From positions 1 to 64,000 of IMG/VR virus record IMGVR_UViG_3300029288_000092: a stretch of DNA of 64,000 bases; one strand, 5' to 3'. The translations under genes and the position numbers were made by a program. Positions within the stretch are counted from its first letter, which is position 1. Each line of letters opens with the position of its first letter. Origin of the DNA: a virus (taxonomy: Duplodnaviria > Caudoviricetes). Shown in pieces: positions 12,703 through 40,689 of the stretch. The notes under the pieces are model-generated. The model saw nothing but the letters and a program-made list of their open reading frames with translations. It did no database searches and was not told the origin of the DNA.

Positions 12703-15700
12703 TTATCCTTCTAGAGCAGAAAGTCTCTGCTCAAGACAACTAATGCATGCCATCATTTCTTTTATCTTGGCGATATTAAGGACTGACAGCATCTGATAGG
12801 ATACCGTCTCTGCTTGACATTGGTCATCACAAACGACAAACTGTGGATAGTAGCAATTTAATTCTTCGGCGATTAAACCTACTGACTGCTGTTCAGAAAT
12901 ACAGTCGTTAACACAGCCATAATAGGATCGCGGGTTAATACAAGAATAGTTACTTAGATCTAAATTTGCATCTTCTATACATGTTTTATACCGACAGGAT
13001 GATGTAAATCGTTTTAAAGCTCCTCCAGAATACCAATGCACTGGTGTCCCAGATGTGGTAGGTTCAACTCCCATGAAAGGAACACAAAAACTTCCGTCAC
13101 TCTTAACCGCCATAGTATTACACCCGTTGGTGTTATATAATGCAAGTGTACTCGTTGCTGAGTCTATTGACCCAGCTTTAACGTATAGCCCGTACCCACT
13201 AGTATTTGAATTACACATAATTGCCATGTATGCAGCAATATTTTCCAAAACCTCGAATTTATAGGCAGGAGCAGTAGTCCCAATGCCTACACATCCCTTT
13301 CGCACAGTCATGGTAGTATCCATTGCTCCGCAACATAATGAAAGGATTCGAACAGCGCCGTGCTCTGCTCCGGCGGTATTATTCATTATACATGCAGAAA
13401 TCTGCCCATATGTTTGGTCAACAGAACCAGAATCCCTCATAATAAAGTCAATACACTGTGCACTTCCGGCAGAAGTACATTGATTATACATTGCCATACT
13501 GGTTCCGTAGACAGTTAAAGAACCGTATGAACAAGTAGTGCCAACACTAGTATTTCCAGAAGAATTGACAGCGAGGTCCACTGTGGATTCATTCCTAGAA
13601 AATGCAAACTGACTACCGGCTAGATTCATAGGGATATAAGCGCTTGTGAATCTATCATAACTAATAATTGGATATATGCTGGCTGGACTAATCTCAATTC
13701 CCGCATTTCCACCATTTGAGACAACAAACTGTCTAGATGGATTGGTTATGCCAACACCTACTTTTCCATCTTGTAACATTACCATCTGCTGACAAGCAAC
13801 ACTTGTGTTTCCTATAAAATGGAATACTTTATCATCAGCATTAGCATCAGATGTAACTTTAAGAGCAGTCGCTGCAGATCCTACTATTCCACACACGTCA
13901 AGTGTGGCGGCTGGAGACGAGGTGTTAACGCCAACATTTCCACCTTGGCTCACGGTAAGTCTTCTAACCCATCCACCAGTAGCTGTTGACATATGAAGGT
14001 CATGATTAGTAGCATCGACAAACACAGAAGTCCAGGCACTTGCACCATCTCGTAAAAGTATGTGTCCATAATTCACAGAGGGTGCATCGTTTATGTCCAG
14101 TTTTGCAGCAGGAGTTGCCGTCCCGATGCCCACTTTACCAACAGAATCTACTGACATAAATGTTGACCAAGCTGTGCTATTTGTGAATTTGGCTACATTC
14201 CCGCTGGAATACCAACCCCATATAAGTTTTGTTTCTGAATCTCTGTCTTCAAAATAATTTCCCCCGGTCACACCAGAAGATAAGGATGCTCCAATTGTTT
14301 CCAGTATATAACCAGTTCTTGGGGTGGATGTGCCGATTCCAACTTTTCCTATATTATCCACGTATAAATCTGGTGGTCCTTGCGCGCCAAAAACAGCTGC
14401 TCCCGTGGTAATCCCAACACCATCATAGCCGCTCAACAATAATACATTTCCGCCAGTGGTTCCTGTAGATGTCCCTCTCCACGCACCGACATAGGAAGAT
14501 GCTGTCCCCGCGTCTCCAAACGCTATACCACCTGTTGCGGTTGCTTTAATTGCACCATTGACTTCCAAATTTACTCCGGGAGTTGATGTGCCGATGCCGA
14601 CATTGCCATAGTTTGTGAAGTGCATCCTGGTCTGTAGGACTCCATCATTATCAGTTACTCTGATTTGGAACGGATAATTGGCACTACCGGCTCGATATGA
14701 TTTCAAGGCAGCAGTCGTGTAGGTGTTAGCTGTGTCAAAAAGATTATATGCCAACTGTACACCAGTATCATCCGTGGACCCACCAACATTAGTTAAAAGT
14801 AGCGGTGTTGTCGTAGACCCTGCTGATGTATCAACCACCTCAAGTTTCTTTGTAGGGTTTTCCGTCCCGATGCCGACATTGCCATCTGAATCAATCCTTA
14901 CTCTTTCAGCCATAGCCCCTGCACCGTGTGTTCTTGTTGCTAATGCAATCGCTGTTCCATATTCTCCATCTACTGCGTTCTCTTTCAAGAAAGAAATTCC
15001 TGAACCTGTTGTGTATGATCCACCGCTTGTATAGATAAACTTCTGGACAATACCTGATGCAGGATTCGCATTATAAGCATCGGTTGATGTTATGTAAATT
15101 TGTGTTGCTTGCGTAGTTCCCAATATGTCTGCTGCGCCGACAATTTCTAAATTATTTGTGGGCGAATCCGTCCCGATGCCGACATTGCCGCCATTAGGAT
15201 TGATGGCTAGCGTCCTTCCTGATACATTTGCTATTCCGGCCTCGGCTCTAGTCTGCGTCTGCAGTACAATGCCCCCAGCGCCAGTGTTGTGCTCGCTGAT
15301 TTTCAGCTGCTGTGCTGCTGCGATAATTTCGATGGTTGCCAAATGCACATTCCCGGCATCGACATGCAGCGTCCCTTCTGGCGCAGCCGTCCCAATGCCA
15401 ACATTTCCACCCAAAGGCTGGACTATCAAGTCTGCTGTGCCTGAAATTGTTGAGTTAATGCCTTGTATTGTTGGTTTCCCCGTTGTGCCTGACCCGAGTG
15501 ATACATATTCGTTTGACCCGCTTCTAGCCATCACAGCGTAATTTCCAGCTGCCGGAGCAGTAGAACGCAGACCATCACCAACCACGTCTAGAGAATATAC
15601 TGGGGATGATGTTCCAATGCCAACAAAACCGTCGTTATGTAAAACTAGCTGATTTGCATTCGCAGCTGTAGCCGAATAAGTAGACAAAACTAGATTGGTT

Positions 15701-16686
15701 GGAACATAGGTTCCAGTCACACCATCCTGGACCGCGATTATTTCTGCACCATATTGTTCTGCAGGAGTAGCAGTAGCTCCCAAGAATTGGATGTTTCCTA
15801 AAGCTGTTCCATCAGTTGTTTGTGCAAGTGTGCCTATAGTGTTAGATAACGACTTGGACATCATCAAGACAGGAAACTTTGTAGCTGTCGATGTTGAGTA
15901 TCCTCTTATGCCTGCAATTGCCCAGTCGTTACTTTTCGTGATTGTTAAGTTATCTCCGGGGGCTGTCGTCCCTATACCGACATTACCAGAACCAAGCATA
16001 GTAGCAACAACAGAGTTGGCTATAGTTTGTCCAGCTTTGCGTACTCTGAAAGTCATACTTCCAGTTTCAGAACCATCGGTTGTTACTGTTTGATTAGAAT
16101 AGATAGTTCCATATACTTCTTCATTATTCGAAGCGTCTCTTCCAATGAATTCTACTCTTCCAACCTCGCTGGCAGAAGTAGAATTTGATGATAAATTTAA
16201 AATACCTCGTTTATAAGCTACATTGCCGCCCCTGATATCAAGAGTGGCATTATCATTAGTTGAACTAATAAGCCCACTAGAAACCACATGTAAAACAGTT
16301 TCCGGAGCAGAGGTGCCAATACCAACTGAGCAACTGGTACAAATATATCCGCCAGAAATGCCCCACACACTGTTAGGATTAGTTACAGGAACCCAGTTAG
16401 TTCCGTTATAAGAAAGAATACAACCAGAAACTTGACCAGTTGTATCTACATTACCAAGATCATCAAGAACAGATCCAGTTTTGCTAACATCTACCCAAGC
16501 GTGATTATGAGATGCAGCTGCAAAATCAGTTGGATCACACCCACACAATGAATCAGCATCCACATCTGATAAATTAATAATATTTGTCCCATCAGTTATA
16601 CAACTAGAAGGAATAAATAAAATATCAGTATCTATAATTCCAGCAGGTTTACCATCGTTTAAAACTAATGGTTTTTTATTAGCCAT
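12703..16686 (-). CDS. Long fibre protein with GNVGIGT repeats and C-terminal intramolecular chaperone (peptidase S74)
   Basis: About 13 G(N/K)VGIGT-type repeats; C-terminal TSSCRYKTCI...GLIAEE...VSY..L...LEQRL S74 signature; Cys-rich termini. Confidence 0.85.
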   Translation of the reverse strand: MANKKPLVLNDGKPAGIIDTDILFIPSSCITDGTNIINLSDVDADSLCGCDPTDFAAASHNHAWVDVSKTGSVLDDLGNVDTTGQVSGCILSYNGTNWVPVTNPNSVWGISGGYICTSCSVGIGTSAPETVLHVVSSGLISSTNDNATLDIRGGNVAYKRGILNLSSNSTSASEVGRVEFIGRDASNNEEVYGTIYSNQTVTTDGSETGSMTFRVRKAGQTIANSVVATMLGSGNVGIGTTAPGDNLTITKSNDWAIAGIRGYSTSTATKFPVLMMSKSLSNTIGTLAQTTDGTALGNIQFLGATATPAEQYGAEIIAVQDGVTGTYVPTNLVLSTYSATAANANQLVLHNDGFVGIGTSSPVYSLDVVGDGLRSTAPAAGNYAVMARSGSNEYVSLGSGTTGKPTIQGINSTISGTADLIVQPLGGNVGIGTAAPEGTLHVDAGNVHLATIEIIAAAQQLKISEHNTGAGGIVLQTQTRAEAGIANVSGRTLAINPNGGNVGIGTDSPTNNLEIVGAADILGTTQATQIYITSTDAYNANPASGIVQKFIYTSGGSYTTGSGISFLKENAVDGEYGTAIALATRTHGAGAMAERVRIDSDGNVGIGTENPTKKLEVVDTSAGSTTTPLLLTNVGGSTDDTGVQLAYNLFDTANTYTTAALKSYRAGSANYPFQIRVTDNDGVLQTRMHFTNYGNVGIGTSTPGVNLEVNGAIKATATGGIAFGDAGTASSYVGAWRGTSTGTTGGNVLLLSGYDGVGITTGAAVFGAQGPPDLYVDNIGKVGIGTSTPRTGYILETIGASLSSGVTGGNYFEDRDSETKLIWGWYSSGNVAKFTNSTAWSTFMSVDSVGKVGIGTATPAAKLDINDAPSVNYGHILLRDGASAWTSVFVDATNHDLHMSTATGGWVRRLTVSQGGNVGVNTSSPAATLDVCGIVGSAATALKVTSDANADDKVFHFIGNTSVACQQMVMLQDGKVGVGITNPSRQFVVSNGGNAGIEISPASIYPIISYDRFTSAYIPMNLAGSQFAFSRNESTVDLAVNSSGNTSVGTTCSYGSLTVYGTSMAMYNQCTSAGSAQCIDFIMRDSGSVDQTYGQISACIMNNTAGAEHGAVRILSLCCGAMDTTMTVRKGCVGIGTTAPAYKFEVLENIAAYMAIMCNSNTSGYGLYVKAGSIDSATSTLALYNTNGCNTMAVKSDGSFCVPFMGVEPTTSGTPVHWYSGGALKRFTSSCRYKTCIEDANLDLSNYSCINPRSYYGCVNDCISEQQSVGLIAEELNCYYPQFVVCDDQCQAETVSYQMLSVLNIAKIKEMMACISCLEQRLSALEG

Positions 16687-17510: not shown

Positions 17511-17582
17511 ATCTACATATATAATATCTTGGCATCTGAAAATGGATGCCAAAAATTTTAAATTAATTGAGGAGGGAATATG
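17511..17582 (+). promoter_or_regulatory. Expression cassette copy 1 (TACATATAT motif + GGCATC/GATGCC hairpin + RBS)
   Basis: Near-identical over ~72 bp to 56169-56241. Confidence 0.8.
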
Positions 17583-17807
17583 AAAAAATGGAAAAATATT
17601 TTAATTTTTCTAGTGTGGATGTGGTTTCTCTATTATGTGTGTGCTGGAACCGTGACAGTTCCAGTAAATTGGAAAATAGATACAATTGAAACAATAAATA
17701 ATAAAATATTTATTGAATCATGGAAGGCAATAGCAATAAGGTGCTTTATTGTTATTGTTATTGCAATAACAATAAATTCAATTTATAAAAGACTCAGCAA
17801 CCACTGA
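17580..17807 (+). CDS. Small two-TM membrane protein (moron-like)
   Basis: 75 aa; GAGGAGG RBS; own promoter cassette and terminator AGACTCAG..CTGAGTCT-T7 at ~17790-17818. Confidence 0.75.
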   Translation: MKKWKNILIFLVWMWFLYYVCAGTVTVPVNWKIDTIETINNKIFIESWKAIAIRCFIVIVIAITINSIYKRLSNH

Positions 17808-27903: not shown

Positions 27904-28933
27904 TAGTATTTAATTCTATTTCTTCTGATTTCAATTCAACACTTTTAGATTCCAATGTTTTGTTTTCTTCATTTTGAATTTGTGCTGGATCAATTTTATT
28001 AAGATTAAAATGTTCACATATTTTTTCAGTTAATTTTTCTACATTAAAAGCCTTCATACATTTATAATTATATTTGCATTTCCATCCCGGAATAGGTGCA
28101 TTTATAATTCCATTGCATGGGGATTCATCACATTCTGAATTTCTAACATGTAAAACTCCAGGATACTGATACCCAAGAGCATTAGCATCAGTCCTACCCC
28201 ATACAACAAAAGCAGGTTTTCTGAATGCAGCTGCCATATGATGTCCGCAACTATCAATTCCTAAAAATCCATCTGCCATTGCTATAGTTGCCATCCAATA
28301 TCTAAAATGCAATTGTTCTTTTGTTAATAGAGTATTCTTTTGAACATTAACCACTGGCTGATCTGCATCTTTCATAATTAGCATTACGCATTTATCACTA
28401 ATTTTATTCATCAATTCATTAAATAATAAAATATTTTCTCTTCCACTTGGAAGAAAAACAGAACTACTTTCTTCTTTTTGCATTCTGCCAACATATTGAA
28501 CAATTAATATTGGTAGTCCATTGGTTTGAGTTTTAATATCCAATAATTTCTTGTGCGCAACAGAAATCAATTCATCATCCAAATATATTTCTGGAAAATA
28601 ATTTCCATCAAATTCTATTTGCCATGCTTCACAAAATGATTCTGTTAAATGTTTTCCATCGTGTCTATATGAATCAAGATGATATGGATTTTCAATTAAC
28701 AGTGTTGATTTTTTTGCATAATCTTCATACATATGTCTGTATTCATTAAATCTCAATGTCCTATAGACATGTGGATTTAAATCATAAACTTCTGGCCATC
28801 CGGATAAAACTATTATTTTTTTATCTGGATATGCTTTCTTTAAACATCTAACTGCTGCTGTCGAGGCAATAACCTTACCTAAACCACCGTCAATACTAAC
28901 AATTAAATATTCAGTATTTTTAGAAATATTCAT
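27881..28933 (-). CDS. Glycosyltransferase family 9 (heptosyltransferase-like)
   Basis: GGLGKVIAST..R.LKK.YP..KI, NPHV, and ADGFLGIDSC.HHMAAAF.KP..VVWG motifs; C-terminal C..C....C...C cluster. Confidence 0.85.
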   Translation of the reverse strand: MNISKNTEYLIVSIDGGLGKVIASTAAVRCLKKAYPDKKIIVLSGWPEVYDLNPHVYRTLRFNEYRHMYEDYAKKSTLLIENPYHLDSYRHDGKHLTESFCEAWQIEFDGNYFPEIYLDDELISVAHKKLLDIKTQTNGLPILIVQYVGRMQKEESSSVFLPSGRENILLFNELMNKISDKCVMLIMKDADQPVVNVQKNTLLTKEQLHFRYWMATIAMADGFLGIDSCGHHMAAAFRKPAFVVWGRTDANALGYQYPGVLHVRNSECDESPCNGIINAPIPGWKCKYNYKCMKAFNVEKLTEKICEHFNLNKIDPAQIQNEENKTLESKSVELKSEEIELNTIEETSKE

Positions 28934-28976: not shown

Positions 28977-30029
28977 CTAAAGCCGGGGGATTCCTGTAGA
29001 GAGGCTCGTTCCGAGCCCAAGTTTAAGAACCTGCTTGGCGGAGTTTATATCTCTGTCATGCTGTGCCCCACAAGCACTGCAGTTCCAAACTCTTACCGCA
29101 AGCCCACTCAATCCGGTGGGTCCGGTTAAGGATCCGCAGGATGAACAGGTCATGGTGGTTTGAAATGAGCTAACTGGAACTACCATTCTACCGCAGTTAC
29201 TGCCCTTGTAGGTGATAAAATCAATTAGTTGTTTTAAACCAGCTTCGGCGACTGACTTTCCGAATTTAGCAGCCATTCCTTTGAAGTTGTCGTCAGAATA
29301 GTATATGGTTGCATAGTTTTCTATAATCCATCGAGAAATCTTATGATTTCTATCTTTCCGTCTATTTGCTTGTCGTTCCTGTAATCTAGCAGCCAATTTC
29401 TTTCTTTTTCCTTTCTGCGCCTGGGCTAACCCGTGCGCGCCTTTCCGAAGTTCTCTCGGATTTTCTATCTTAGTGCCATCCGAAAGAGTTAGCAAAGTAG
29501 AGAATCCAGGATCAATTCCAATTGCGTTGGATGTCTTCTTAACAGGGAATGTATGGTTCGTATCCAGCCATAAACATAGATACCAACCAGATGATTTCTT
29601 AATGATTCTTCCACATTTAATATCAGCGGGTGGCAATTCTTGTTTATGATATCTAATTTTTCCCAATCCAAGAATACTAATTTTGTTAGCAACTGGGGCT
29701 TTGAATTTGTCCGGAAACGGAATAGAATTAAGTTTATTCCTCATTCCTTTAAGATGAGGCTTCTTAGCAATCTTTTTGAAACATCTGGTCCAAGCATTAT
29801 GAACCTGCACCAGAATTCCTTGTATAATATGTGATGGAATTCCAATCTTTTTCCCATGACCGGCAAGCAGGTTCTGGAATGACATTTTGGAAAAGAATAT
29901 TTTGTTCTGGGCATTGCATTCAATTTTTCGTAAACCCCAATTATATACCCCAGTTAGGATATTGAGCCAATCCAGGAGTTGTGCTTCCTGTTTTTTAGTT
30001 GGTTTGAGTTTAAGTGTACGAACTATCAT
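28977..30029 (-). CDS. tnpB: TnpB RNA-guided nuclease homolog, RuvC-II Glu apparently absent
   Basis: N-terminal LKLKPTKKQ, RuvC-I GIDPG, Zn ribbon CSSC/CSAC, RuvC-III HDRDINSA. YYSDDNF stands where the canonical protein has IIEDLNV. Confidence 0.9.
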   Translation of the reverse strand: MIVRTLKLKPTKKQEAQLLDWLNILTGVYNWGLRKIECNAQNKIFFSKMSFQNLLAGHGKKIGIPSHIIQGILVQVHNAWTRCFKKIAKKPHLKGMRNKLNSIPFPDKFKAPVANKISILGLGKIRYHKQELPPADIKCGRIIKKSSGWYLCLWLDTNHTFPVKKTSNAIGIDPGFSTLLTLSDGTKIENPRELRKGAHGLAQAQKGKRKKLAARLQERQANRRKDRNHKISRWIIENYATIYYSDDNFKGMAAKFGKSVAEAGLKQLIDFITYKGSNCGRMVVPVSSFQTTMTCSSCGSLTGPTGLSGLAVRVWNCSACGAQHDRDINSAKQVLKLGLGTSLSTGIPRL

Positions 30030-30329: not shown

Positions 30330-33300
30330 TTAGTTAAGAATTGTAGGACCAAATGAAACGATTAAATCATTATCGCTCAATTTAATACCAACTCGTTTAA
30401 CAACGGTTGAAGCATCTGTCGGTTCTGTTGCGGTATATGCCCCAGCGGTTGTATCGGATACATATATTACATCACCAACTGAACCAATACTCGTTAATAA
30501 ACCTGTCTTAGTAAATACTCTATCAAATTTAACATAAACTGTTTCATCTGCACCTGTAGCTGCACTGGTTGCAATACCTAAAGTTTCATAATAATAAGAT
30601 GTATTTGCTCTGCTCTTAACAATTTTTCCTGATGTATTGAGAGCTATAAGATCTCCAATAGCTAATGCTTCGCCTGATGTTAAAGCCATCAAGCCATCAC
30701 GAGAAATTTGTTGTGCCGACCAAACATCAGCAGATCCAGTTCCTGAATCATTAAATTTAACTGTTAACTGGCTAGATACGTTTTCTTCAATGGTGCTATC
30801 ATCAACTTTTATACCAACACCATTTGTTGCATCGACATTAATTGATCTTGCTATATTAGATCCGCCCACCGAATCAACAGCAAGATCTATTGTTATGGTA
30901 TCAGTTTCAGCATCAGTTGTAATTGTAATTGCATTTCCGGCTGCAAATGTTAAAGTATCATCTGCAGCATCCGCAACCACACTGCTTTGACCAGATACCG
31001 AAATTGTCTTAAATGCATACGAAGCAAATGTTCCTATAACTTCAAGTTCACCAGACAAATTGACTTGAATTGTAGTATCATCAGTCTTTGCTGATAATAT
31101 TCCACCAGTTAATCCCAGACCACCACCTGCAACACTTGAAGACAAAATAATATTAACTGTTTCCGGTGTGTCTGCTACAGTAATAGACATCGAATTATCA
31201 GTAGAAATGAATGTTAAAGTATCAGCATCTGAGTCTGCCACTGTAGTATTTGTTCCATCACTTATGGTCTTAAAAGAATATACTGTAGGAATTAATCCTT
31301 CAATTTCTTCTAATGCATCTTGAACGTTAAGTGCCGAACCACCATATGTCCCACCTGTGTCCAAAGGTAAACTGGTTGCATCAACTAAATTGGTTCCAGT
31401 GCCCCAATCAATTTCTGCTTCACCAACAGCATCGGCTGCAAGTTCACTGGTATCAATACCATTGGCAGTGACCTTAAGACCTGATGACCCAACTGTTAGA
31501 GTAGAACCATCAAGTTTTACTTCTAATCCCTTATTAGTTGAATCGAATGCAATACCACCATCTGATTCTAAATTAATTCTGATTTTATTTGTATCTTCTG
31601 TTAAACCATAATTTGTATCAATTGTATCCGTTACATCGACTTGAATATTACCAGAACCATCAAAATCCAGGCCGCCGTCAGTTGTTAATTTAACTTCTAT
31701 TGCGTTTGATGTTTCACCAAGACCTTTATTCGTGTTAATTATATTTGTAGAATCAACCTCAATTTCATTTGATGCATTAATAACAATAGTGCTTCCGTCA
31801 ACATTAACTCCAATAACACCACTAACAACATCCAATGCACCATCAGTATCAATCTTGGCTTTACCCCAGTCAGTAGTGCTGGCATAAGGAATGGATGATG
31901 CTCCAGTTTGCTGCCACACTTGAGAATCAGCATCCCAAGAAAATTGACTATCACATACACGACAATAATGTGTTTCATGTAATTCTAAAGAAGCATATTC
32001 TCTGGAGAATCCAAAATTTGTAGCTTCTGGTTGTGTTGTTGGTAATGCCACCATATCCGATGACAATGCTTCATAAACATTTGTAAGAGTTGGATTTGCA
32101 ATAAGTGATCTTGTAGCTGCTCCAGCATTACCATAAATTCTAGTAGATTCTCCGATTGTGTCTTGCCATAGAATCAAAACATCATTTGTAGCATCAACTG
32201 AATCCAATAATGTTGTAGTGGTAGATATTGCTATATTACTATCAGCCACAATTTCTGCGCTAATATTTGCTAATGTTGCGTTAATATCTGCACCAATTGA
32301 AAAATCAGTTCCAGCAATAAAACTTTCTGTGTTAGTTCCATCATATAGTGAAATAGTATCGCCAGTTTCCAAATTAGCAGATAACTTCAACACCTGTGCA
32401 GCATAAATACCACCAGATGCTCCATCAACTAATTGATCACTAATAAGTAAAATTTCTTTCCATAATTTACTAACAGCAGCAACTGCTTGAAGCTGACCAT
32501 AATTAACAGCATCACCCGGATTTGCACCATCTGCTAAATTGGTTATGCTATTGGAATCCATATCAATGTCACCAGACATGGTTCCACCAGCAAGCGGCAG
32601 ATAATCTCCGGTCATCGAATCATATATTTCAGCTAATACCGCTTCAACATTTTCTCCAGTAAATCTAGTACCAGAATCAACCACGGGAACATCATCTGCT
32701 GCAACTTGGTTTCCGGTAGTTCCCCAATCAATTTCTGCAGAACCAACTGCATCTGCAGCAATTTGATCAGTATCAACTGCAGAATTGGCAATTCCGAGTG
32801 AAAGTGTTTTAGTTGAAGCACTTCCGGTGATAGTTAAATGTGTTGAAGTTATACTCATTGTATCGGATCCAGATGCTGTCAAATTATCGCCGATATCAAC
32901 ATTAAATGTTTTCCAAGCATCTACAACTACGGAACCAATACTATCTCTTAATTCTTCTAAGGCACCATCAACATCAGTTGCAGTCCCTTCCCATGCAGTG
33001 CCAACAGGGACATCATCTGCTGCAACTTGAAACACATCAGTTCCCCAATTTATCTGAGTATCTTTAATTCCATCTGCTTTAACTGTGACTTGGCCAGTGG
33101 AAAATTCCATAGTGGTACTATCTATACTAACATATAAACTTCCATCTGTATATTGCAAAAGACCATTTCCAGCTCTAACAACATCCGCATTTAATTTAGC
33201 AGCGGTAACATTATCATCTATTATTTTAATGGTGCTTACAGAATTTGATCCCAACTTACTTTGTGTTATTCCAGAATCTTTAATACGAATAGATGCTGGC

Positions 33301-34976
33301 GTAGCAGAACTCGGAACATAACTTGGTTCCACAATATTATCAATTGCGCCACCCAGTGTTGCAGTTCCCCATTTGCCCATATAATTTGAACTAATCTCTA
33401 TTTTTAACGCTTCAAGTGATGCGTTGCTACTTGTCCAGGATGCATCACTTATCACTTCTACACTATCAACTGTTACATCTGCTAACTTATTTGTATAGTC
33501 TAATGTTACACCAATTGATAACCCGGATGCTGCTTCAGCAATAGTTGCAACAGCTGCAGCAGAACCTATTACTCCTTCATCTCCTTCTTTTTTGCCTTCA
33601 TCCATTTTTGACAAATACAAATTGACGTTTCCGCTTCCATCTGCTGATAAACTCAATCTGAATTCTGCTGTTGTCCCTGCAACATCAGTCCAAATTATAT
33701 AAGCGGTTGGATTTTCATATACATTATTAGATTCCAAAAATAAATCTGCAGAAAAAGAGTAAGTCCCAGTTGAAAATGGATCAATTTTTGATATAATAAT
33801 TCTATCAAAAGCAGAATCTGTTACTCTATATCCTGCACTAAGACCAGTTTCACCAGTTTTATAATCATCGTTATATAGTAATGAAGAATAACCAGATACT
33901 AATCTCCAATCATATTCTGTATCCGATCCATCGCCAACCCAACTCGTGGATGAAACTGCATTACCATCAACTCCGTCATCAAAATCATCCCAATCTGGAG
34001 GTTGCTGCGCATCGACCCACTCAATTGTTGAATCATCAACTTCATTTTCCAGAATAAAATTTCCAGATGTATCAAAATTATTACTTACAATCTTGGCACC
34101 ACTGACGAATGTCAAAGAAGTGTTTCCAATATTGGTAATATCGTTGCCATTCATATTGATGTCGCCCGACATTGTTCCACCGGCAAGTGGTAGATAATTA
34201 CCAACTGAGTCTCTTAATTCTTCTAAGGCACCATCAACATCAGTTGCAGTTCCTTCCCATGCAGTGCCAGTCGGAACGGATGCAGCATTAATTTGATTGG
34301 TACTGGTTCCCCAATCAATTTCTGCAGAACCAACTGCATCATCAGCAAGATGTTCTGTGTCAATTGCATTATCGGCAATCTGTGATGAACCAATACCATC
34401 GGCCTTAACTGCTACTTGATTTGAGCCATTAATTTCAATAGTAGTGTCATCAACTTTAACATCGAGCACTCCGGTTGTTAATCCAAGACCATCTCCAGCA
34501 AATGTGGCAGCAATATGAAAATCTGCACCAGCTGGTAAATATGACGTAATACTTAAAGAATTATCACTAGACGTGAATGCTAAATCGCCACCATTATCGG
34601 TTGCTGATACCTGAGATAAATCCGGAAAAGTAATTGTTTCAAAAAAATCACCAGAACCAATAGCACTATCAACATAAGATTTGGTAACCAGATCGGTGTC
34701 ACTAAATGTTTCTGCGGTTGTTGAAATAGTATAAGCCCCTATGCTCCAATCAGCACTTAGACTTCTGGTTCCATCAACTAATACAAAATCACTTTCACTT
34801 TTACTACCAACTTTATCAGCATTTAAATTTGTAATAACTCCAGTGTATGATATTGTAATAGGTGCAGCAACAGAATCATTTAAAGTAACACTCTTGACTT
34901 GAATAGAGTCATTAGTTTGATCATGCTTTTGAAATTCGCCATTTGCATTTAGCTTGATAAATTTTACATCAGCCAT
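30330..34976 (-). CDS. Large acidic fibre protein (probable head fibre) with C-terminal cement-like domain
   Basis: Repeats YLPLAGGTMSGDI, VDDSTIE, GTAWEGTATDVDGALEELRDS (x2), AVGSAEIDWGT; C-terminal SGEALAIGD..YVSDTTAG domain. Confidence 0.75.
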   Translation of the reverse strand: MADVKFIKLNANGEFQKHDQTNDSIQVKSVTLNDSVAAPITISYTGVITNLNADKVGSKSESDFVLVDGTRSLSADWSIGAYTISTTAETFSDTDLVTKSYVDSAIGSGDFFETITFPDLSQVSATDNGGDLAFTSSDNSLSITSYLPAGADFHIAATFAGDGLGLTTGVLDVKVDDTTIEINGSNQVAVKADGIGSSQIADNAIDTEHLADDAVGSAEIDWGTSTNQINAASVPTGTAWEGTATDVDGALEELRDSVGNYLPLAGGTMSGDINMNGNDITNIGNTSLTFVSGAKIVSNNFDTSGNFILENEVDDSTIEWVDAQQPPDWDDFDDGVDGNAVSSTSWVGDGSDTEYDWRLVSGYSSLLYNDDYKTGETGLSAGYRVTDSAFDRIIISKIDPFSTGTYSFSADLFLESNNVYENPTAYIIWTDVAGTTAEFRLSLSADGSGNVNLYLSKMDEGKKEGDEGVIGSAAAVATIAEAASGLSIGVTLDYTNKLADVTVDSVEVISDASWTSSNASLEALKIEISSNYMGKWGTATLGGAIDNIVEPSYVPSSATPASIRIKDSGITQSKLGSNSVSTIKIIDDNVTAAKLNADVVRAGNGLLQYTDGSLYVSIDSTTMEFSTGQVTVKADGIKDTQINWGTDVFQVAADDVPVGTAWEGTATDVDGALEELRDSIGSVVVDAWKTFNVDIGDNLTASGSDTMSITSTHLTITGSASTKTLSLGIANSAVDTDQIAADAVGSAEIDWGTTGNQVAADDVPVVDSGTRFTGENVEAVLAEIYDSMTGDYLPLAGGTMSGDIDMDSNSITNLADGANPGDAVNYGQLQAVAAVSKLWKEILLISDQLVDGASGGIYAAQVLKLSANLETGDTISLYDGTNTESFIAGTDFSIGADINATLANISAEIVADSNIAISTTTTLLDSVDATNDVLILWQDTIGESTRIYGNAGAATRSLIANPTLTNVYEALSSDMVALPTTQPEATNFGFSREYASLELHETHYCRVCDSQFSWDADSQVWQQTGASSIPYASTTDWGKAKIDTDGALDVVSGVIGVNVDGSTIVINASNEIEVDSTNIINTNKGLGETSNAIEVKLTTDGGLDFDGSGNIQVDVTDTIDTNYGLTEDTNKIRINLESDGGIAFDSTNKGLEVKLDGSTLTVGSSGLKVTANGIDTSELAADAVGEAEIDWGTGTNLVDATSLPLDTGGTYGGSALNVQDALEEIEGLIPTVYSFKTISDGTNTTVADSDADTLTFISTDNSMSITVADTPETVNIILSSSVAGGGLGLTGGILSAKTDDTTIQVNLSGELEVIGTFASYAFKTISVSGQSSVVADAADDTLTFAAGNAITITTDAETDTITIDLAVDSVGGSNIARSINVDATNGVGIKVDDSTIEENVSSQLTVKFNDSGTGSADVWSAQQISRDGLMALTSGEALAIGDLIALNTSGKIVKSRANTSYYYETLGIATSAATGADETVYVKFDRVFTKTGLLTSIGSVGDVIYVSDTTAGAYTATEPTDASTVVKRVGIKLSDNDLIVSFGPTILN
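32944..34269. repeat. ~60-bp near-identical direct repeat pair in the fibre gene
   Basis: 32944-33004 and 34210-34269 (TCTCTTAATTCTTCTAAGGCACCATCAACATCAGTTGCAGT...). A second shorter pair lies near 32721 and 34310. Confidence 0.85.
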
Positions 34977-35008: not shown

Positions 35009-35569
35009 CTACGAAATTTCCAAAGGTTCATTTTTTATAAATTCGATAGATTCAATAACATTATCCATAATTCTTAATATATTTTTTCTATTTTTTATTT
35101 TTTCATAATATTGAATATATTTATTTTTAGATTCTTCTATTGTATTTTCTAACAATATTTTATCAACATTATTTGCATTTTCATTTTTTAATATATATCC
35201 AGAACATAATTCATCATTTATTTTTTCAGATATTCCACCTCCACAATTATATAACAATTTTAAAGAAGGATAATTAAAAGATTTAACAATGTATTTTATT
35301 TTGTTTACATTAATTAAATTAAATAATAATTCAATAGATTTTTTTCCAATACCCTTTCCAGAATATTTTGGAAAAACACATATACACAAGGAATCATTAT
35401 TACGGATATATTCTATAAAACCAGCAATATTTTTATTTGACATTATAGTAAAAGAATAAGAAAGAGGAACTTTCTTTCCAGTTCCTATGAATGGATAATA
35501 ATATCTAGCAGCGATTTGCATAAGAATATCATCAACTCCAGCTTTTAAAGATACATTTATATTTTGCAT
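35009..35569 (-). CDS. GNAT family N-acetyltransferase
   Basis: Acetyl-CoA loop KYSGKGIGK and N.PS.KL...GG motif B. Confidence 0.7.
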   Translation of the reverse strand: MQNINVSLKAGVDDILMQIAARYYYPFIGTGKKVPLSYSFTIMSNKNIAGFIEYIRNNDSLCICVFPKYSGKGIGKKSIELLFNLINVNKIKYIVKSFNYPSLKLLYNCGGGISEKINDELCSGYILKNENANNVDKILLENTIEESKNKYIQYYEKIKNRKNILRIMDNVIESIEFIKNEPLEIS

Positions 35570-36906: not shown

Positions 36907-39900
36907 TTACGCTGTATATTTGAAATAGACATCTCCAGCTACCATTCCACTGGAAGGAGGATCACTAGTTCCATATGTAAATCTACCATCTCTAGCATAA
37001 TAAGATGCAGTTTGACTATTCAAACATGTAGCATTTACATTTCCTGATGTATCAAATGCAGTGGATGACACTATAGAACCATCTGCAAATTTTAAAGAAG
37101 AATTATTAATATTACAAATTGAAAAATTACACATATCTAAATTACAGCAAATTTCAACAGCACCTGATGCTGGAATATTTATTTTAGTAACACCTGTTGT
37201 TTCTAAACCTAATCCATATGCATCATTATTTCCCAATGTTCTATTTGCTCCTGCAGTATCTCCACCATCACTAAAATCACCACCAGTTGGAAGAGTCATA
37301 TATGAAATTCCGTCTGCAGTAGAACATAATATACATCCATTGCAATAATTACTTGGTGTATCACATAAACTAATAAATGTTGTGCATGCTATATTGGTCA
37401 ACGAAACCCACCCAGTTCCTTTATATCCTTCAAAATCAGAACCAGACCATCTTATCATTCCACTTATATCACACCCAGAATTTCCTAATTGTATTCCACC
37501 CGTTACACATATATTTCCTTCCGCTTTTATAGAATAACTATCAACATTCCCTCTAGCGCATACACCAACTTCACCCCAGGCACAAACGCCAACAGTACCA
37601 GCACACATTTCTAAAGCAACATCATCATATATACCTATTCCAAAAACACCAATATCACCGCAAAGATAAGCGCTGACTGCTCCACTTCCACCAGTTGCAT
37701 ATGTTTCTAAAGCATACCCACCAACAGATGTTTTAACAAGATTTGCTACTGACCCAGATCCACTTTGTGTTGCTTGTATTATTGGATCAGCACAAAATAC
37801 ATTTAAATCGAGCATTGTGATATTTGCAACTGTTAGTCCCGTTCCAGATGGATTGACAACTACAAATTTATCTCCTTGACCGGTATAAGATGACATCCCA
37901 GTTCCACCCCTTGAAACACCTAAAGTTCCAGATGTTATGCATGATGTATCATGTGTATGAGATGCCAAAGCAGGGGTTGTAACAAATTCTAATGCATTAC
38001 CATCTCCATTCACTTTTAACCAACAATTAGCGGTATATGAACTTGGTGTATCAGTCAAATCAGTAAATTCTAAAGAACTTGCCGGAAGATTAGTTAATGC
38101 AGAACCATCACCATCGAAACTAGTTGCCTTTACTTGACCGTCAACTTCTAAAGTTTGTGTGGGAGTTAAACATCCTATGCCAACTTTACCGCCCATGATT
38201 GCCATGGTACTGCCTTGCGACAGCGTGTGCAAATTACCATCAAGTCCTATACCGAAGGAGTAAACCCCACTCGCCGTTGTATTTACTCCCATGGCTGTGC
38301 TGCTGGATCCCGTTGCGTGGTTTCCAAAACCAATAGCTACAGAATTATCGCAAGTGGCAGTAGCACCATTACCAATAGCAAAGGAGTAAACCCCACTCGC
38401 CGTTGTATTTACTCCCATGGCTGTGCTGCTGGATCCCGTTGCGTGGTTTCCAAAACCAATAGCTACAGAATTATCGCAAGTGGCAGTAGCACCATCACCA
38501 ATAGCAAAAGATTTGATACCGCTGGCAGTAGCACCAGCACCAGTAATGTTTCCCATCACACCTAAATTACAACATACACAGATGTCTCCGCCGCATTCTA
38601 TGCAAAGTCTAGTCTGATTGTCTGTTATGAATTCTAAAGAATAAAAATCGGTATTCCCTAGAACTCTGTTATAGCCTCGACACTCCCCCCCATTATTAAA
38701 TTCACTGGGAGGCGATGACACGATCCACTTATTAACCGAAGAAGTATAAACTAAAACATCTCCATCAGTCGGTGGCATATAAATAACATCATTCAAGTCT
38801 CGAACATTCCCACTAAAGTTAAGAGCAACCGAATCATTCATTCCAGGAAGTTCTACATTATCTATGGTCACAATTGGTTGATTTACATCACTAACAAATT
38901 GAATATGAATAGAGCCTAATGCATTTGGTGTCGTTCCAGCACTGTATGATGCCCCATTAAAGCCAGATAACGGAATCATTCCTCCACCCTGATCGACACT
39001 AATTGTTACTAAATTATTTGTTAGGTCTACATCCACTTGAATATCAAATTTATTAACAGTTACTGATGTATCTGGTGGAATTGATAACAATCCCCCGGAG
39101 TCAGTGGCTGAAATAGTCACATTGGTAGCACCCCACGTAGCAGATATCATTAATAAAAAAGTTCCCATTACTGTTTTATAATCTTGTAGAAACAACATAA
39201 TAGTTGCAGACTCATCAGGATGAAAATTGCTTTCCAACGTAGCCTTAGCTGTCCAGACACCCGATGATGTTGATTTATTAGCATTACTGGTCATCATGGA
39301 ACTACCCACTGGAACAACCAATGTTAGATCATCACCAACGCGGAATAAATTAGAACCCCCATCTGCGACATAAACAGGACTGTTTGCTACCGTGGTCCAT
39401 GCAAAATCATCCAATCCAATCCAAGGATTAATAATTGTTGTAAGAGGTTGTCCTGCAGTTTTGGAGGGGTCATCAAAATCTCCCCAATATAATGGGGCTC
39501 CCAAACAAGAAAATTGAATAGTTCTGTCATCAACTTCACCAGATAAATTTAGGCATCCGGTGGACTTAAATTTGTCCGAATGAATCTCTGCACTATCCAC
39601 AAACTTTAAAGATGAGTTTCCAATATTGCAGATATCACAACTACACATATCCAAATGTCCATTAGAAATAATACCCTGAGAAATTATGCAACCATCCACT
39701 GATAATTTATGGGATGGAGTTAAACACCCAACACCAGTATAATCCGCACCAATATATATTGTATTTCCTTGGGAGAGAACCGGTTTAGTCACAACATAAC
39801 TTTGTATTCCTAATGAACAATTTCCAGTTACACATATACTTCCAATTCCAATTGATTTATCAGCGCAAACAACAGTTCCATCACCAATAGCTACACTATT

Positions 39901-40689
39901 GCTCCCAAATAAAACCATTGCTTGATATCCAAGTGCTGCTGAATAAGGCACAGAAACAAATGAATTATTTCCCAGTGAAATAGAATCATTTGCGTTTGTT
40001 CCTGTTCCTGCTCCAGAACCATATGAAACAGATCTAAGTCCATTTGAGCATGCACCAGATCCAATAGCTGACGAATAATTACCATTAGCACAACTGGCTC
40101 CAGAAGCATATATGGAATCCGTTCCTGTTCCTTTTTTAACTGTTGGTGTCATCCATGTCAAACAAGATCCATTTGAACATAATTGACATCCATATATATG
40201 AGTTGATGGTGTATCTGTTAATTCTATAAATGAACTAACTCCACTTGGTAAATCTATTGCTTCCCAACATGAATTTGATTGGTCATAGCTTAATACTTTT
40301 CCATCTAGAAAAGATCCAGAATTTACATCATTTAATTCGTTTAAACCCAATGTTGAATTTTTCCAAGTTCCATCAATATTATATTTCAAAATCTGATCAG
40401 ATGTTATTGACGTTATTGAAACATCTTCAATATCATTTATAGATGATCCGGTAAAATCATTTATGTCTGTCCAATTATGATTGTGTATTGTAGAAGCCTT
40501 TCCATCCAAATCATCTTGTAAATTAGAAACATCTGATATTGAATGGCCATGTCCTTCAATTGATAATTCGGAAATAGTTCTAGTTTCGGCACCATCACTT
40601 AACACACCAGATGGTATATTTAAACAATCGATGGATTTTAATTCTTTTAATTCACCATCATCTATAATTAAAGGACGCTTATTAGCCAT
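36907..40689 (-). CDS. Cys-rich fibre protein with YadA-head-like repeats
   Basis: S.AIG..A.A repeats, LNELNDV and F..LTDTP repeats, about 45 Cys by manual count, C-terminal P....GDVYFKY. Confidence 0.8.
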   Translation of the reverse strand: MANKRPLIIDDGELKELKSIDCLNIPSGVLSDGAETRTISELSIEGHGHSISDVSNLQDDLDGKASTIHNHNWTDINDFTGSSINDIEDVSITSITSDQILKYNIDGTWKNSTLGLNELNDVNSGSFLDGKVLSYDQSNSCWEAIDLPSGVSSFIELTDTPSTHIYGCQLCSNGSCLTWMTPTVKKGTGTDSIYASGASCANGNYSSAIGSGACSNGLRSVSYGSGAGTGTNANDSISLGNNSFVSVPYSAALGYQAMVLFGSNSVAIGDGTVVCADKSIGIGSICVTGNCSLGIQSYVVTKPVLSQGNTIYIGADYTGVGCLTPSHKLSVDGCIISQGIISNGHLDMCSCDICNIGNSSLKFVDSAEIHSDKFKSTGCLNLSGEVDDRTIQFSCLGAPLYWGDFDDPSKTAGQPLTTIINPWIGLDDFAWTTVANSPVYVADGGSNLFRVGDDLTLVVPVGSSMMTSNANKSTSSGVWTAKATLESNFHPDESATIMLFLQDYKTVMGTFLLMISATWGATNVTISATDSGGLLSIPPDTSVTVNKFDIQVDVDLTNNLVTISVDQGGGMIPLSGFNGASYSAGTTPNALGSIHIQFVSDVNQPIVTIDNVELPGMNDSVALNFSGNVRDLNDVIYMPPTDGDVLVYTSSVNKWIVSSPPSEFNNGGECRGYNRVLGNTDFYSLEFITDNQTRLCIECGGDICVCCNLGVMGNITGAGATASGIKSFAIGDGATATCDNSVAIGFGNHATGSSSTAMGVNTTASGVYSFAIGNGATATCDNSVAIGFGNHATGSSSTAMGVNTTASGVYSFGIGLDGNLHTLSQGSTMAIMGGKVGIGCLTPTQTLEVDGQVKATSFDGDGSALTNLPASSLEFTDLTDTPSSYTANCWLKVNGDGNALEFVTTPALASHTHDTSCITSGTLGVSRGGTGMSSYTGQGDKFVVVNPSGTGLTVANITMLDLNVFCADPIIQATQSGSGSVANLVKTSVGGYALETYATGGSGAVSAYLCGDIGVFGIGIYDDVALEMCAGTVGVCAWGEVGVCARGNVDSYSIKAEGNICVTGGIQLGNSGCDISGMIRWSGSDFEGYKGTGWVSLTNIACTTFISLCDTPSNYCNGCILCSTADGISYMTLPTGGDFSDGGDTAGANRTLGNNDAYGLGLETTGVTKINIPASGAVEICCNLDMCNFSICNINNSSLKFADGSIVSSTAFDTSGNVNATCLNSQTASYYARDGRFTYGTSDPPSSGMVAGDVYFKYTA
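38255..38508. repeat. 126-bp tandem duplication (one mismatch) in the fibre gene
   Basis: Copies start at 38255 and 38381 and encode SFAIG(D/N)GATATCDNSVAIGFGNHATGSSSTAMGVNTTASGVY. Confidence 0.95.

What the first reader, a model, noticed from the sequence alone, without database searches (positions are those of the whole stretch)
12703..40689. Cys-substituted fibres alongside a GT9: candidate thiol-directed virion modification system
Seen: by manual count 36907..40689 has ~45 Cys and 12703..16686 has ~28, versus about 2 in the 1548-aa fibre and 0-3 in the other fibres. Cys replaces small polar residues in otherwise conserved modules: DMCSCDICNIGN versus NMNGNDITNIGN (30330), FISLCDTP versus FIDLTDTP, GCVGIGT and VGIGCLTP versus GNVGIGT(T/S).P. 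Even the S74 chaperone is affected (SSCRYKTCI, MACISCLE). Spacing is irregular and not CxxC-like. The same late block encodes a GT9 (27881..28933), a GNAT and a C92 amidase. Known: heptosyltransferases can glycosylate adhesins, and some phage virions are glycosylated. Inference: the surface Cys are acceptors for S-glycosylation or another modification. Alternatives are inter-chain disulfides in the trimer or metal/mineral binding.
Basis: partly seen in the sequence, partly recalled or inferred. Interest (0 to 1): 0.8.

Follow-up and report, generated by a model that had tools for sequence, protein, structure and literature searches.

The report
Cysteine-studded phage fibres with GT9-like transferase
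A fragment of an uncultured jumbo phage encodes three tail fibres with 10 to 40 times the cysteine of its other fibres plus a divergent heptosyltransferase-like enzyme; this pairing recurs in many unrelated water phages, so the enzyme probably decorates the fibres, perhaps on cysteine itself, though that is untested.

Summary
The fibre at 36907-40689 has 45 Cys in 1260 aa and the one at 12703-16686 has 28 in 1327. A third fibre outside the window (genome 114279-116138) has 36 in 617. Eight other large fibre-like or structural proteins total 13 Cys in 7302 aa.

The gene at 27881-28933 is a divergent GT9-like GT-B enzyme. It keeps the donor motif, but a Lys/Arg sits where GT9 enzymes have the catalytic Asp.

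- In cultured phages (P-SSM2, S-SSM7, S-CAM1, Aeromonas HJ05, pelagiphage HTVC112P) the enzyme's homolog lies directly beside proteins with 1.9-11.6% Cys.
- In 14 of 29 dereplicated IMG/VR lineages a Cys-rich fibre or tip protein lies within 1.5 kb.
- In a sister phage the enzyme gene lies among six Cys-rich fibres.

Cys positions are poorly conserved, Cys counts show no even-number bias, and Cys sit at variable repeat positions. This argues against an all-disulfide scaffold.

S-glycosylation itself is unproven. In this window the enzyme gene is 8 kb from the nearest Cys-rich fibre, and the cleaved S74-like chaperone part is Cys-rich too.

This scan has reported the same pairing on several other genomes. 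I found no paper describing it.

The parts
36907..40689 (-). Cys-rich tail fibre F1 (1260 aa, 45 Cys). It has a PTR-like N-terminus with HxH motifs, YadA-head-like repeats and a Cys-free central module (residues 396-669).
   Evidence: A 97%-identical allele (P0004) differs by only two substitutions, both at Cys (C200/S, C214/Y), plus a 42-aa repeat indel.
12703..16686 (-). Cys-rich tail fibre F2 (1327 aa, 28 Cys). Cys occur only in residues 1-120 and 930-1327. The central GNVGIGT-repeat part is Cys-free and GC-rich. The C-terminus is S74-like.
27881..28933 (-). Divergent GT9-like GT-B glycosyltransferase (350 aa). It has an invariant GGLGK motif, the donor motif IDSCGHHMAAAF, and a four-Cys cluster near the C-terminus.
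   Evidence: Pfam GT9 E 1e-3, below the cut-off. PHROG 8954, E 5e-24. NCBIfam heptosyltransferases, local matches. AF2 pLDDT 83, with best Foldseek matches 3TOV, 1PSW, 2H1H and TibC 4RAP. hhalign to WaaC and WaaF covers the donor motif only. Alignment A1.
30330..34976 (-). Cys-poor 1548-aa fibre (2 Cys), an internal contrast. It shares a module with F1 residues 330-566.
28977..30029 (-). TnpB (IS605 OrfB) insertion between the 1548-aa fibre gene and the GT gene. It is not part of the system.
   Evidence: Pfam Cas12f1-like_TNB, OrfB_IS605 and HTH_OrfB.
35009..35569 (-). Weak GNAT-like ORF (186 aa). Whether it belongs to the system is unsupported.
   Evidence: Pfam GNAT families at E 4e-4 to 5e-3, all below their cut-offs. 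No homolog found in the GT loci.
12225..12698 (-). YaeF/C92-like permuted papain ORF directly downstream of F2. A 50%-identical homolog lies directly upstream of a Cys-rich fibre in a related contig (L089).
38246..38511 (-). Recent 126-nt tandem duplication inside F1 (YadA-head repeats, each copy with one Cys). It is absent from the allele in L001.

Best explanation
The Cys-rich fibres and the GT9-like enzyme form one functional module, in which a phage-encoded late enzyme modifies the phage's own receptor-binding proteins.

The enzyme is a divergent relative of ADP-heptose-dependent GT9 transferases. It keeps the nucleotide-sugar binding motif but has Lys/Arg where GT9 enzymes have their general-base Asp. 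I propose that in the infected cell's cytoplasm it transfers a sugar onto the distal, Cys-studded parts of fibres F1, F2 and F3. The many exposed, positionally unconserved Cys thiols are the most likely acceptors, giving S-linked glycans. The result would be a dense, hydrolysis-resistant coat that also keeps the thiols from oxidising.

Shown:
- The Cys enrichment.
- The GT9-like fold and donor motif.
- The genomic association across unrelated phages.
- The poor positional conservation of Cys.

Inferred:
- That the enzyme acts on the fibres.
- That the donor is ADP-heptose. This rests on the ADP-heptose pathway genes next to the homolog in cyanophages.
- That the acceptor atom is the sulfur of Cys.
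For: (1) Association in cultured phages.
- The homolog lies directly downstream of proteins with 8-11.6% Cys in P-SSM2, S-SSM7 and S-CAM1.
- It follows a 559-aa protein with 4.1% Cys in Aeromonas phage HJ05.
- It follows the S74 tail fibre (1.85% Cys) in pelagiphage HTVC112P. Other structural proteins there have 0-0.8%.

(2) Association in IMG/VR. There are 527 homologs. Among the 80 fetched (29 clusters at 70% identity), 14 clusters have an ORF of 300 aa or more with at least 2.5% Cys within 1.5 kb. Near ORFs exceed far ORFs (Mann-Whitney P 2e-5). The partner is often the ORF immediately upstream on the same strand.

(3) The partners come from several unrelated families: GpJ-like tip proteins with about 12-14% Cys confined to the C-terminal 500 aa, S74 fibres, and Gly_rich_2 adhesins. 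The trait is therefore convergent and not simply inherited.

(4) Phyletic nesting. Homologs of the two cyanophage Cys-rich proteins occur in 22 of 50,697 phage records. Twenty-one of these are among the 27 GT-bearing records, and the other is a second contig of a GT-bearing single-cell virus.

(5) In the sister phage contig L092 the GT homolog (42% identity) lies between Cys-rich fibres, and six such fibres are present.

(6) Baseline. 118 YadA-head fibre homologs have a median of 0.09% Cys, and 150 homologs of fibre F3 have a median of 0.25%.

(7) Within one phage, Cys-rich and Cys-free fibres coexist. The trait therefore belongs to particular fibres, not to the habitat.

(8) The Cys do not behave like a disulfide scaffold.
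- Only 6 of 144 Cys columns are invariant among six homologous tips, and 72 are singletons.
- Cys is less conserved than W, G, Y and P in that family, and below average in the F3 family.
- Cys counts are even in 16 proteins and odd in 15.
- In the 17-residue repeats of HTVC112P, Cys sit only at the variable polar positions.

(9) The only two amino-acid differences across about 17 kb shared with a near-identical strain are Cys/Ser and Cys/Tyr in F1.

(10) Cyanophage homologs lie next to GmhA, HldE-like and HldD genes and a carbamoyltransferase. In 11 of 29 IMG/VR clusters the neighbour is a sulfotransferase. These are sugar-making and sugar-decorating enzymes.

(11) A basic residue (K or R) occupies the position of the GT9 catalytic Asp throughout the family. 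This fits an acceptor that needs no general base, such as a thiolate.
Against: - There is no biochemical evidence for any acceptor, and no S-linked heptose is known in nature. To my knowledge the known S-glycosyltransferases (SunS, ThuS, GccA) are GT2 enzymes with a GT-A fold.
- In this window the GT gene is 8 kb from F1 and 11 kb from F2, and its nearest fibre is Cys-poor.
- The S74-like chaperone part of F2 has 11 Cys in its last ~100 residues, although this part is normally cleaved off.
- About half of the dereplicated GT lineages have no neighbour with at least 2.5% Cys within 1.5 kb, and a few have none in 20 kb.
- The Asp-to-Lys assignment rests on a 5.9-bit alignment plus secondary-structure register.
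- Neither ADP-heptose genes nor a sulfotransferase were found in this 38%-complete genome fragment.
- Disulfide-bonded fibres are documented in the freshwater cyanophage Pam3 (PMC9942802).
Confidence: 0.4

Rival explanations
1. The Cys form disulfide or metal-mediated cross-links, within or between fibre chains or to the baseplate, that harden the distal fibres once the virion is outside the cell. The GT9-like enzyme either O-glycosylates Ser/Thr of the same fibres, as TibC and AAH do on adhesins, or works on something else.
For: - Pam3 cyanophage fibres are covalently tied to the baseplate by disulfides, and reduction detaches them (PMC9942802).
- Many carriers live in oxic water (cyanophages, pelagiphages).
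- TibC heptosylates Ser, not Cys (PMC4358343).
- A subset of Cys columns is conserved in the GpJ-like tips: 16 of 144 columns have Cys in at least 5 of 6 sequences.
- F1 shows a modest excess of CxxC and CxxxxC spacings.
- Cys at the same position in consecutive 17-residue coils, as at HTVC112P residues 311 and 328, could pair.
Against: - Half of the Cys columns are singletons, and Cys is not the best-conserved residue.
- Cys counts show no bias toward even numbers.
- No sulfhydryl oxidase, thioredoxin or glutaredoxin was found in the available genome fragment, which is only 38% complete.
- The idea does not by itself explain why Cys-rich proteins from unrelated families sit next to this one enzyme family.
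- The Cys-rich S74-like part would be gone before any extracellular oxidation.
Confidence: 0.3
2. The GT9-like enzyme modifies the host envelope, for example the LPS core, to exclude superinfection or change receptors. It lies near fibres only because both sit in the hypervariable host-recognition cluster. The Cys enrichment is an unrelated property of some receptor-binding domains.
For: - This is the published reading of glycosyltransferases in the fibre clusters of pelagimyophages and cyanomyophages (PMC7029224).
- The closest solved folds include the LPS heptosyltransferases WaaC and WaaF.
- Cyanophages carry a full ADP-heptose pathway next to the gene.
- In this window the gene is not adjacent to a Cys-rich fibre.
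Against: - The association is with Cys-rich partners specifically, not with fibres in general. Cys-poor fibres in the same phages lie farther away.
- The phyletic nesting is complete apart from one record, a second contig of a GT-bearing virus.
- The gene lies on the same strand inside late structural operons, here between fibre genes and the terminase.
- The GT9 general-base Asp used on LPS acceptors appears to be replaced.
Confidence: 0.15
3. The Cys enrichment has no specific function. Fast-evolving, G/S/T/N-rich fibre genes under relaxed selection against Cys drift toward the neutral codon expectation.
For: - Base composition alone predicts 3.3-4.1% Cys for these three genes, close to F1's 3.6%.
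- Cys is one mutation from Ser, Gly and Tyr codons.
- The two polymorphisms in F1 are Cys/Ser and Cys/Tyr.
- The chaperone part is affected too.
Against: - The distal part of F3 (8.1%), the GpJ-like tips (12-14%) and the cyanophage proteins (8-11.6%) far exceed the neutral expectation.
- Equally fast-evolving fibres in the same genome have 0-0.4% Cys.
- The idea does not explain the link to one enzyme family.
Confidence: 0.1

Closest known systems
Bacterial autotransporter heptosyltransferases (BAHT: TibC, AAH) with their adhesins TibA and AIDA-I (PMC4358343; PDB 4RAP, 4RB4)
   Same: - A GT-B enzyme related to GT9 that uses ADP-heptose to decorate a repetitive beta-solenoid adhesin at many sites in the cytoplasm.
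- TibC is among the best structural matches (TM about 0.58).
- This phage's subclade has a four-Cys cluster inserted in the C-lobe, reminiscent of the TibC iron finger.
- The enzyme gene travels with the gene of its presumed substrate.
   Different: - There is no N-terminal beta-barrel: the model starts with the Rossmann beta1 strand at residue 9.
- Lys/Arg sits at the position of the GT9 general base, whereas TibC uses Asp110.
- The four-Cys cluster is absent from most of the family.
- No sequence match to TibC at E up to 1.
- TibC modifies Ser. Here the conspicuous feature of the partners is Cys.
- Phage context.
LPS heptosyltransferases WaaC and WaaF and CAZy family GT9 (PDB 2H1H, 1PSW, 3TOV)
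   Same: - Best fold matches.
- The conserved donor motif D-S/T-x-x-x-H...AAA...P..V..G.T aligns.
- Cyanophage homologs lie next to ADP-heptose pathway genes.
   Different: - The Pfam GT9 score is below the gathering cut-off.
- The N-lobe cannot be aligned by sequence.
- The catalytic Asp appears to be replaced by an invariant Lys/Arg.
- The gene lies in late structural operons of phages, next to receptor-binding proteins, not in LPS core clusters.
S-glycosylated bacteriocins (sublancin/SunS, glycocin F/GccA, thurandacin/ThuS); from my own knowledge, not checked here
   Same: A sugar on the sulfur of Cys is the chemistry proposed for the fibres.
   Different: Those enzymes are GT2 (GT-A fold) and modify one or two defined Cys in small peptides. 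Here the enzyme is GT-B, the proteins are large virion proteins with tens of Cys, and no adduct has been shown.
Disulfide-tethered tail fibres of cyanophage Pam3 (PMC9942802)
   Same: An aquatic phage whose tail fibres use Cys chemistry.
   Different: Pam3 uses one Cys per fibre chain and small Cys-rich patches on the wedge. Here Cys reach 3.6-8% over hundreds of residues of the distal fibre, with unconserved positions.
O-glycosylated virions of mycobacteriophages; from my own knowledge, not checked here
   Same: Phage-encoded glycosyltransferases that decorate the phage's own virion proteins.
   Different: A different enzyme family, with capsid and tail-tube targets and Ser/Thr acceptors.

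Membership tests
CAZy GT9 / Pfam PF01075 (heptosyltransferases) | Sequence score above the curated family threshold | tested here: not met
   Pfam 18.9 bits against a cut-off of 22. NCBIfam heptosyltransferase models give only local matches far below their cut-offs. Five of 16 homologs carry a precomputed PF01075 hit.
CAZy GT9 / Pfam PF01075 (heptosyltransferases) | GT-B fold closest to solved GT9 structures | tested here: met
   AF2 pLDDT 83 and pTM 0.82. Foldseek top matches are 3TOV, 1PSW, 2H1H, 2GT1 and 4RAP, at E 3e-11 to 1e-7 and TM 0.5-0.6.
CAZy GT9 / Pfam PF01075 (heptosyltransferases) | C-lobe nucleotide-sugar motif (D-S/T-G-x-x-H-x-AAA ... G-x-T) | tested here: met
   IDSCGHHMAAAF...VVWGRT aligns to VDTGLSHLTAAL...VYGPT of WaaC and to the same motif in WaaF. 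D227, S228, H232 and T248 are invariant in A1. DSxxxH is present in all 80 IMG/VR homologs.
CAZy GT9 / Pfam PF01075 (heptosyltransferases) | General-base Asp in the beta1-alpha1 loop (WaaC Asp13, motif GD) | tested here: not met
   The loop reads GGLGK, with K20 invariant in A1. It is K in the IMG/VR homologs where the motif was found (68 of 80) and R in the cyanophage and HJ05 homologs. The only alignment of this loop, to 3TOV 'HLGD', scores 5.9 bits, so the register is supported mainly by the predicted strand-loop-helix.
BAHT (TibC/AAH) | N-terminal flattened beta-barrel of about 97 residues before the catalytic domain (PMC4358343) | tested here: not met
   The model begins with Rossmann strand E9-14 followed by helix 18-34, and the protein has 350 aa in all.
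BAHT (TibC/AAH) | Four-Cys iron finger inserted in the C-lobe | tested here: inconclusive
   Four Cys follow the WGRT motif (pattern C-x5-C ... C-x5-C) and are conserved in 14 of 16 sequences of A1. They are absent from most IMG/VR homologs. Metal binding cannot be tested here.
BAHT (TibC/AAH) | Heptosylates a repetitive adhesin encoded nearby | not testable with these tools
   Only gene neighbourhood is available.
Known S-glycosyltransferases (SunS/ThuS/GccA type) | GT2, GT-A fold | tested here: not met
   The fold is GT-B. There is no GT2 match in Pfam or in the listed Foldseek matches.
Peptidase_S74 intramolecular chaperone (C-terminus of 12703-16686) | Match to the family profile and a conserved Ser...Lys dyad | tested here: inconclusive
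   No Pfam hit even at E up to 5. A pairwise alignment to the Pfam-verified S74 domain of the HTVC112P fibre gives 31% over 98 aa, E 3e-5, with TSSCRYKT aligned to TSDLRDKT.
Diversity-generating retroelement target | Template/variable repeat pair, adenine-specific differences and a reverse transcriptase | tested here: not met
   The genome self-comparison finds no repeat covering the polymorphic codons 200 and 214 of F1. The Mtd_N hit belongs to a different fibre.

The most novel reading that the evidence does not exclude
Tailed phages of water habitats carry a widespread, undescribed system for modifying their own virions. A GT9-derived enzyme whose catalytic Asp has become Lys/Arg attaches heptose, sometimes further sulfated or carbamoylated, through S-glycosidic bonds to dozens of positionally unconserved Cys on receptor-binding proteins. 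This would be the first S-glycosylated virion and the first S-heptosylation.
Probability: 0.25. Interest if true: 0.9.

Novelty: new variant of a known kind. Interest (0 to 1): 0.65.

Why it matters
Receptor-binding proteins decide which hosts a phage can infect. A dedicated enzyme that chemically coats them would add a layer to phage-host recognition that sequence-based host prediction and fibre engineering ignore.

If the sugar is on sulfur, this would be a new protein modification for viruses and a new activity for the GT9 fold.

It would also change how a gene in marine cyanophages and pelagiphages is read. That gene has been taken as a host LPS-modifying auxiliary gene.

The idea can be tested directly, because cultured carriers exist: P-SSM2, S-SSM7, S-CAM1, HTVC112P and Aeromonas phage HJ05.

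Tried and rejected
- **DGR-driven Cys gain.** Both SNPs in F1 involve an adenine in the other strain and a neighbouring fibre has an Mtd_N domain, but no template repeat exists.
- **Alternative genetic code.** Not relevant, because TGY is Cys in every code and the ORFs are open under table 11.
- **P0115 as an independent Cys-rich relative.** Its contig (L002) carries a giant-virus-type major capsid protein, by my reading of the sequence, so it was set aside.
- **Relaxed selection in an anoxic habitat.** The sister contig has NrdD/NrdG, but to my knowledge T4 has these too, and the same pairing occurs in surface-ocean phages.
- **AlphaFold model of fibre F3 to judge Cys exposure.** pLDDT was below 50 across the Cys-rich part.
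- **ESM Atlas look-alikes of F3.** Only generic fibre clusters, with scores below 0.9.
- **tblastn of F1 against the phage collection.** No match.
- **Polarising the two Cys polymorphisms with a third strain.** The only extra contig (L099) holds just the last 63 residues of F1.
- **Converse test on moderately Cys-enriched fibres** (P0010 at 1.4%, P0073 at 1.2%). No GT nearby, but these are below the Cys-rich range and one is bacterial.
- **Sequence context around Cys.** No sequon, only a mild enrichment of Trp at position -1.
- **Sulfotransferase, GmhA, HldE-type, Erv1, thioredoxin and glutaredoxin genes in the genome fragment.** None found.
- **Literature.** Five searches found no report linking Cys-rich fibres with a GT9-like enzyme or describing S-glycosylated virions.

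Full report
**What the window is**

The window is the first 64 kb of a 119,310-bp IMG/VR virus record that CheckV rates 38% complete. It is a fragment of a low-GC (about 0.30) jumbo tailed phage. It has a distant T4-type terminase (23-25% identity to known phages). Earlier notes of this scan and a near-identical contig show a multisubunit RNA polymerase. Positions 12 to 50 kb form one minus-strand late block holding at least seven fibre-like genes, the terminase and a few enzymes.

**Observation**

The Cys counts are exact:
- 45 of 1260 residues for 36907-40689 (F1).
- 28 of 1327 for 12703-16686 (F2).
- 2 of 1548 for the fibre at 30330-34976, and 0-3 in the other fibres.
- A third Cys-rich fibre, F3, lies outside the window at genome 114279-116138. 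It has 36 Cys in 617 residues, all of them after residue 176.

Against all the other ORFs of the genome (0.94% Cys) and against eight other large fibre-like or structural proteins (0.18%), the excess is highly significant.

The enrichment is regional. F2 has Cys only in residues 1-120 and 930-1327. F1 has a Cys-free module at 396-669, which overlaps the part homologous to the Cys-poor 1548-aa fibre.

The quoted motif pairs are real. Spacing is near random.

The C-terminus of F2 is S74-like by pairwise alignment to a Pfam-verified S74 domain, and its Ser...Lys pair is kept. Pfam itself does not detect it.

Among 118 database homologs that share F1's YadA-head repeats, the median Cys content is 0.09%. 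Among 150 homologs of F3 it is 0.25%.

**The enzyme**

The gene at 27881-28933 scores below the Pfam GT9 cut-off. It belongs to PHROG 8954, of unknown function (E 5e-24).

An AlphaFold model built from 16 homologs is confident (pLDDT 83). Its best matches are GT9 structures: 3TOV, WaaF 1PSW, WaaC 2H1H, and the adhesin heptosyltransferase TibC 4RAP.

Profile comparison aligns only the donor-binding motif, IDSCGHHMAAAF...WGRT.

In the beta1-alpha1 loop GT9 enzymes have the general base in a 'GD' motif. This family instead has an invariant 'GK', or 'GR' in the cyanophage and HJ05 homologs. The alignment of that loop is weak, so I treat the substitution as probable, not proven.

I file the protein as GT9-like, not as a canonical GT9 or BAHT member. 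It lacks the N-terminal barrel of TibC (PMC4358343).

*Cultured phages.* tblastn finds the enzyme in only 27 of 50,697 phage records: cyanomyoviruses, pelagiphages HTVC111P and HTVC112P, Aeromonas phage HJ05, and marine single-cell viruses.
- In HJ05 the ORF directly upstream has 23 Cys in 559 aa.
- In HTVC112P the S74 tail fibre directly upstream has 14 in 756.
- In P-SSM2, S-SSM7 and S-CAM1 two or three ORFs just upstream have 8.4-11.6% Cys, while the other neighbours have 0-0.9%.

Homologs of these cyanophage Cys-rich proteins occur in 22 records. Twenty-one are GT-bearing records, and the last is a second contig of a GT-bearing single-cell virus.

*IMG/VR.* There are 527 homologs. The 80 fetched loci collapse to 29 clusters at 70% enzyme identity.
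- In 14 clusters an ORF of at least 300 aa with at least 2.5% Cys lies within 1.5 kb, typically the next gene upstream on the same strand.
- Several further clusters have giant neighbours with 1.8-2.3% Cys, that is 40-66 Cys.
- Near ORFs exceed far ORFs (Mann-Whitney P 2e-5; Fisher P 0.002).

*Nature of the partners.* They fall into several families that BLAST does not connect. Examples are GpJ-like tip proteins whose Cys are confined to the last ~500 residues at up to 9 per 50, S74 fibres, and Gly_rich_2 adhesins.

*Sister phage.* In a contig that shares F3's N-terminal domain, the enzyme (42% identity) sits between Cys-rich fibres, and six such fibres are present.

*Other neighbours.* Next to the enzyme there is a sulfotransferase in 11 of 29 clusters. 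In cyanophages the neighbours are GmhA, HldE-like and HldD genes and a carbamoyltransferase.

**What the Cys are doing**

Several results argue against a fixed disulfide scaffold:
- Among six homologous GpJ-like tips (23-44% identity), only 6 of 144 Cys-containing columns are invariant and 72 are singletons. The residues opposite Cys are mostly T, S, A, V, Y, N and G.
- Cys is conserved less than W, G, Y and P in that family, and below average in the F3 family.
- Cys counts are even in 16 and odd in 15 of the Cys-rich partners.
- In the 17-residue repeats of the HTVC112P fibre, Cys occur only at the variable polar positions and never at the conserved N-T-A-x-G core.
- Across about 17 kb shared with a near-identical strain there are four point differences, and the only two that change an amino acid are Cys/Ser and Cys/Tyr in F1. 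The direction of change is unknown.

Density is thus maintained while positions drift, as in mucin-type acceptor regions or in cross-linking matrix proteins.

Base composition alone predicts 3.3-4.1% Cys, so F1 sits at the neutral level. F3's distal part (8.1%) and the partners elsewhere (8-14%) lie well above it.

**Weighing the explanations**

I take the functional coupling of the enzyme family with Cys-rich receptor-binding proteins as well supported. I rate the combined claim, that the enzyme acts on the fibres with Cys as the likely acceptor, at 0.4. The S-linkage specifically I put at about 0.25.

The main rival is that the Cys form disulfide or metal cross-links, with the enzyme O-glycosylating the fibres or acting elsewhere. 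Pam3 shows that aquatic phage fibres can be disulfide-tethered (PMC9942802), and TibC modifies Ser (PMC4358343).

The published reading of such glycosyltransferases as host LPS modifiers (PMC7029224) does not explain the specificity for Cys-rich neighbours.

Three points count against the proposal in this window:
- The enzyme gene lies 8 kb from F1, and its nearest fibre is Cys-poor.
- A TnpB element sits between that fibre and the enzyme gene.
- The S74-like part of F2, normally cleaved from mature fibres, is also Cys-rich.

The structural test could not be done.

**Novelty**

Five literature searches found nothing on this pairing.

This scan has reported the same pairing, including the Asp-to-Lys point and the sulfotransferase, on at least seven other genomes. 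Those notes are not independent evidence. The tests above were run here before I read them.

New from this window:
- A jumbo-phage lineage with three to six Cys-rich fibres per genome.
- Cys enrichment reaching into an S74-like chaperone.
- A strain pair whose only protein differences in this region are Cys changes.

Noticed in passing
window 43556-44206 and 28977-30029; L001:6637-7134: There are two TnpB (IS605 OrfB) genes, one of them truncated. In the near-identical strain (L001), the DNA upstream of the truncated copy encodes RNA polymerase subunits instead of the two fibre genes at 44212-48870. Identity also drops from 99.99% to 98.6% there. The fibre cassette therefore seems to have been rearranged at the TnpB remnant.
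   Followed up: partly
window 38246-38511: A 126-nt tandem duplication inside F1 (96% identical copies) adds 42 residues of YadA-head repeat and one Cys. It is absent from the otherwise near-identical strain.
   Followed up: yes
window 40048-40092 (F1 codons 200 and 214): The only two amino-acid differences in about 17 kb shared with strain L001 are TGT/AGT (Cys/Ser) and TGT/TAT (Cys/Tyr). The direction of change could not be polarised.
   Followed up: partly
window 17511-17583 and 56169-56242: A 74-nt direct repeat (92% identity) in two intergenic regions 38 kb apart. It may be a shared regulatory element.
   Followed up: no
window 12225-12698; L089:1-423: The YaeF/C92-like papain ORF directly downstream of F2 has a 50%-identical homolog directly upstream of another Cys-rich fibre (67 Cys in 1047 aa) in a related contig. 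It could be a second accessory gene that recurs with Cys-rich fibres in this lineage.
   Followed up: partly
L011:10897-11724, L043:10879-11718 and 9 further GT clusters: A sulfotransferase gene (PF00685/PF13469) lies beside the GT9-like gene, usually just downstream, in 11 of 29 dereplicated IMG/VR clusters. None is found in this genome fragment.
   Followed up: yes
L006:13098-17498, L007:13223-22788, L008:13131-17333: In the cyanomyoviruses the GT9-like gene is followed by a carbamoyltransferase and ADP-heptose pathway genes (GmhA, kinase and nucleotidyltransferase, epimerase). This points to heptose as the donor sugar.
   Followed up: partly
L092:1-2631; L093:1603-4586: The sister phage contig encodes anaerobic ribonucleotide reductase NrdD with its activase, and a 7-deazaguanine (queuosine precursor) pathway: PTPS, QueE-like radical SAM, GTP cyclohydrolase I, QueC and QueF. 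This suggests modified DNA in the lineage.
   Followed up: no
L002:2586-14911: A giant-virus contig encodes very large collagen-like and YadA-like repeat proteins with 1.5-2.6% Cys, next to a 4.9%-Cys protein whose N-terminus looks like a double-jelly-roll major capsid protein. It is unrelated to the phage system.
   Followed up: no
window 27139-27903: The 254-aa ORF directly downstream of the GT9-like gene has no match in Pfam, PHROGs or NCBIfam, and none in the sister contig. It could be a lineage-specific partner of the enzyme.
   Followed up: partly
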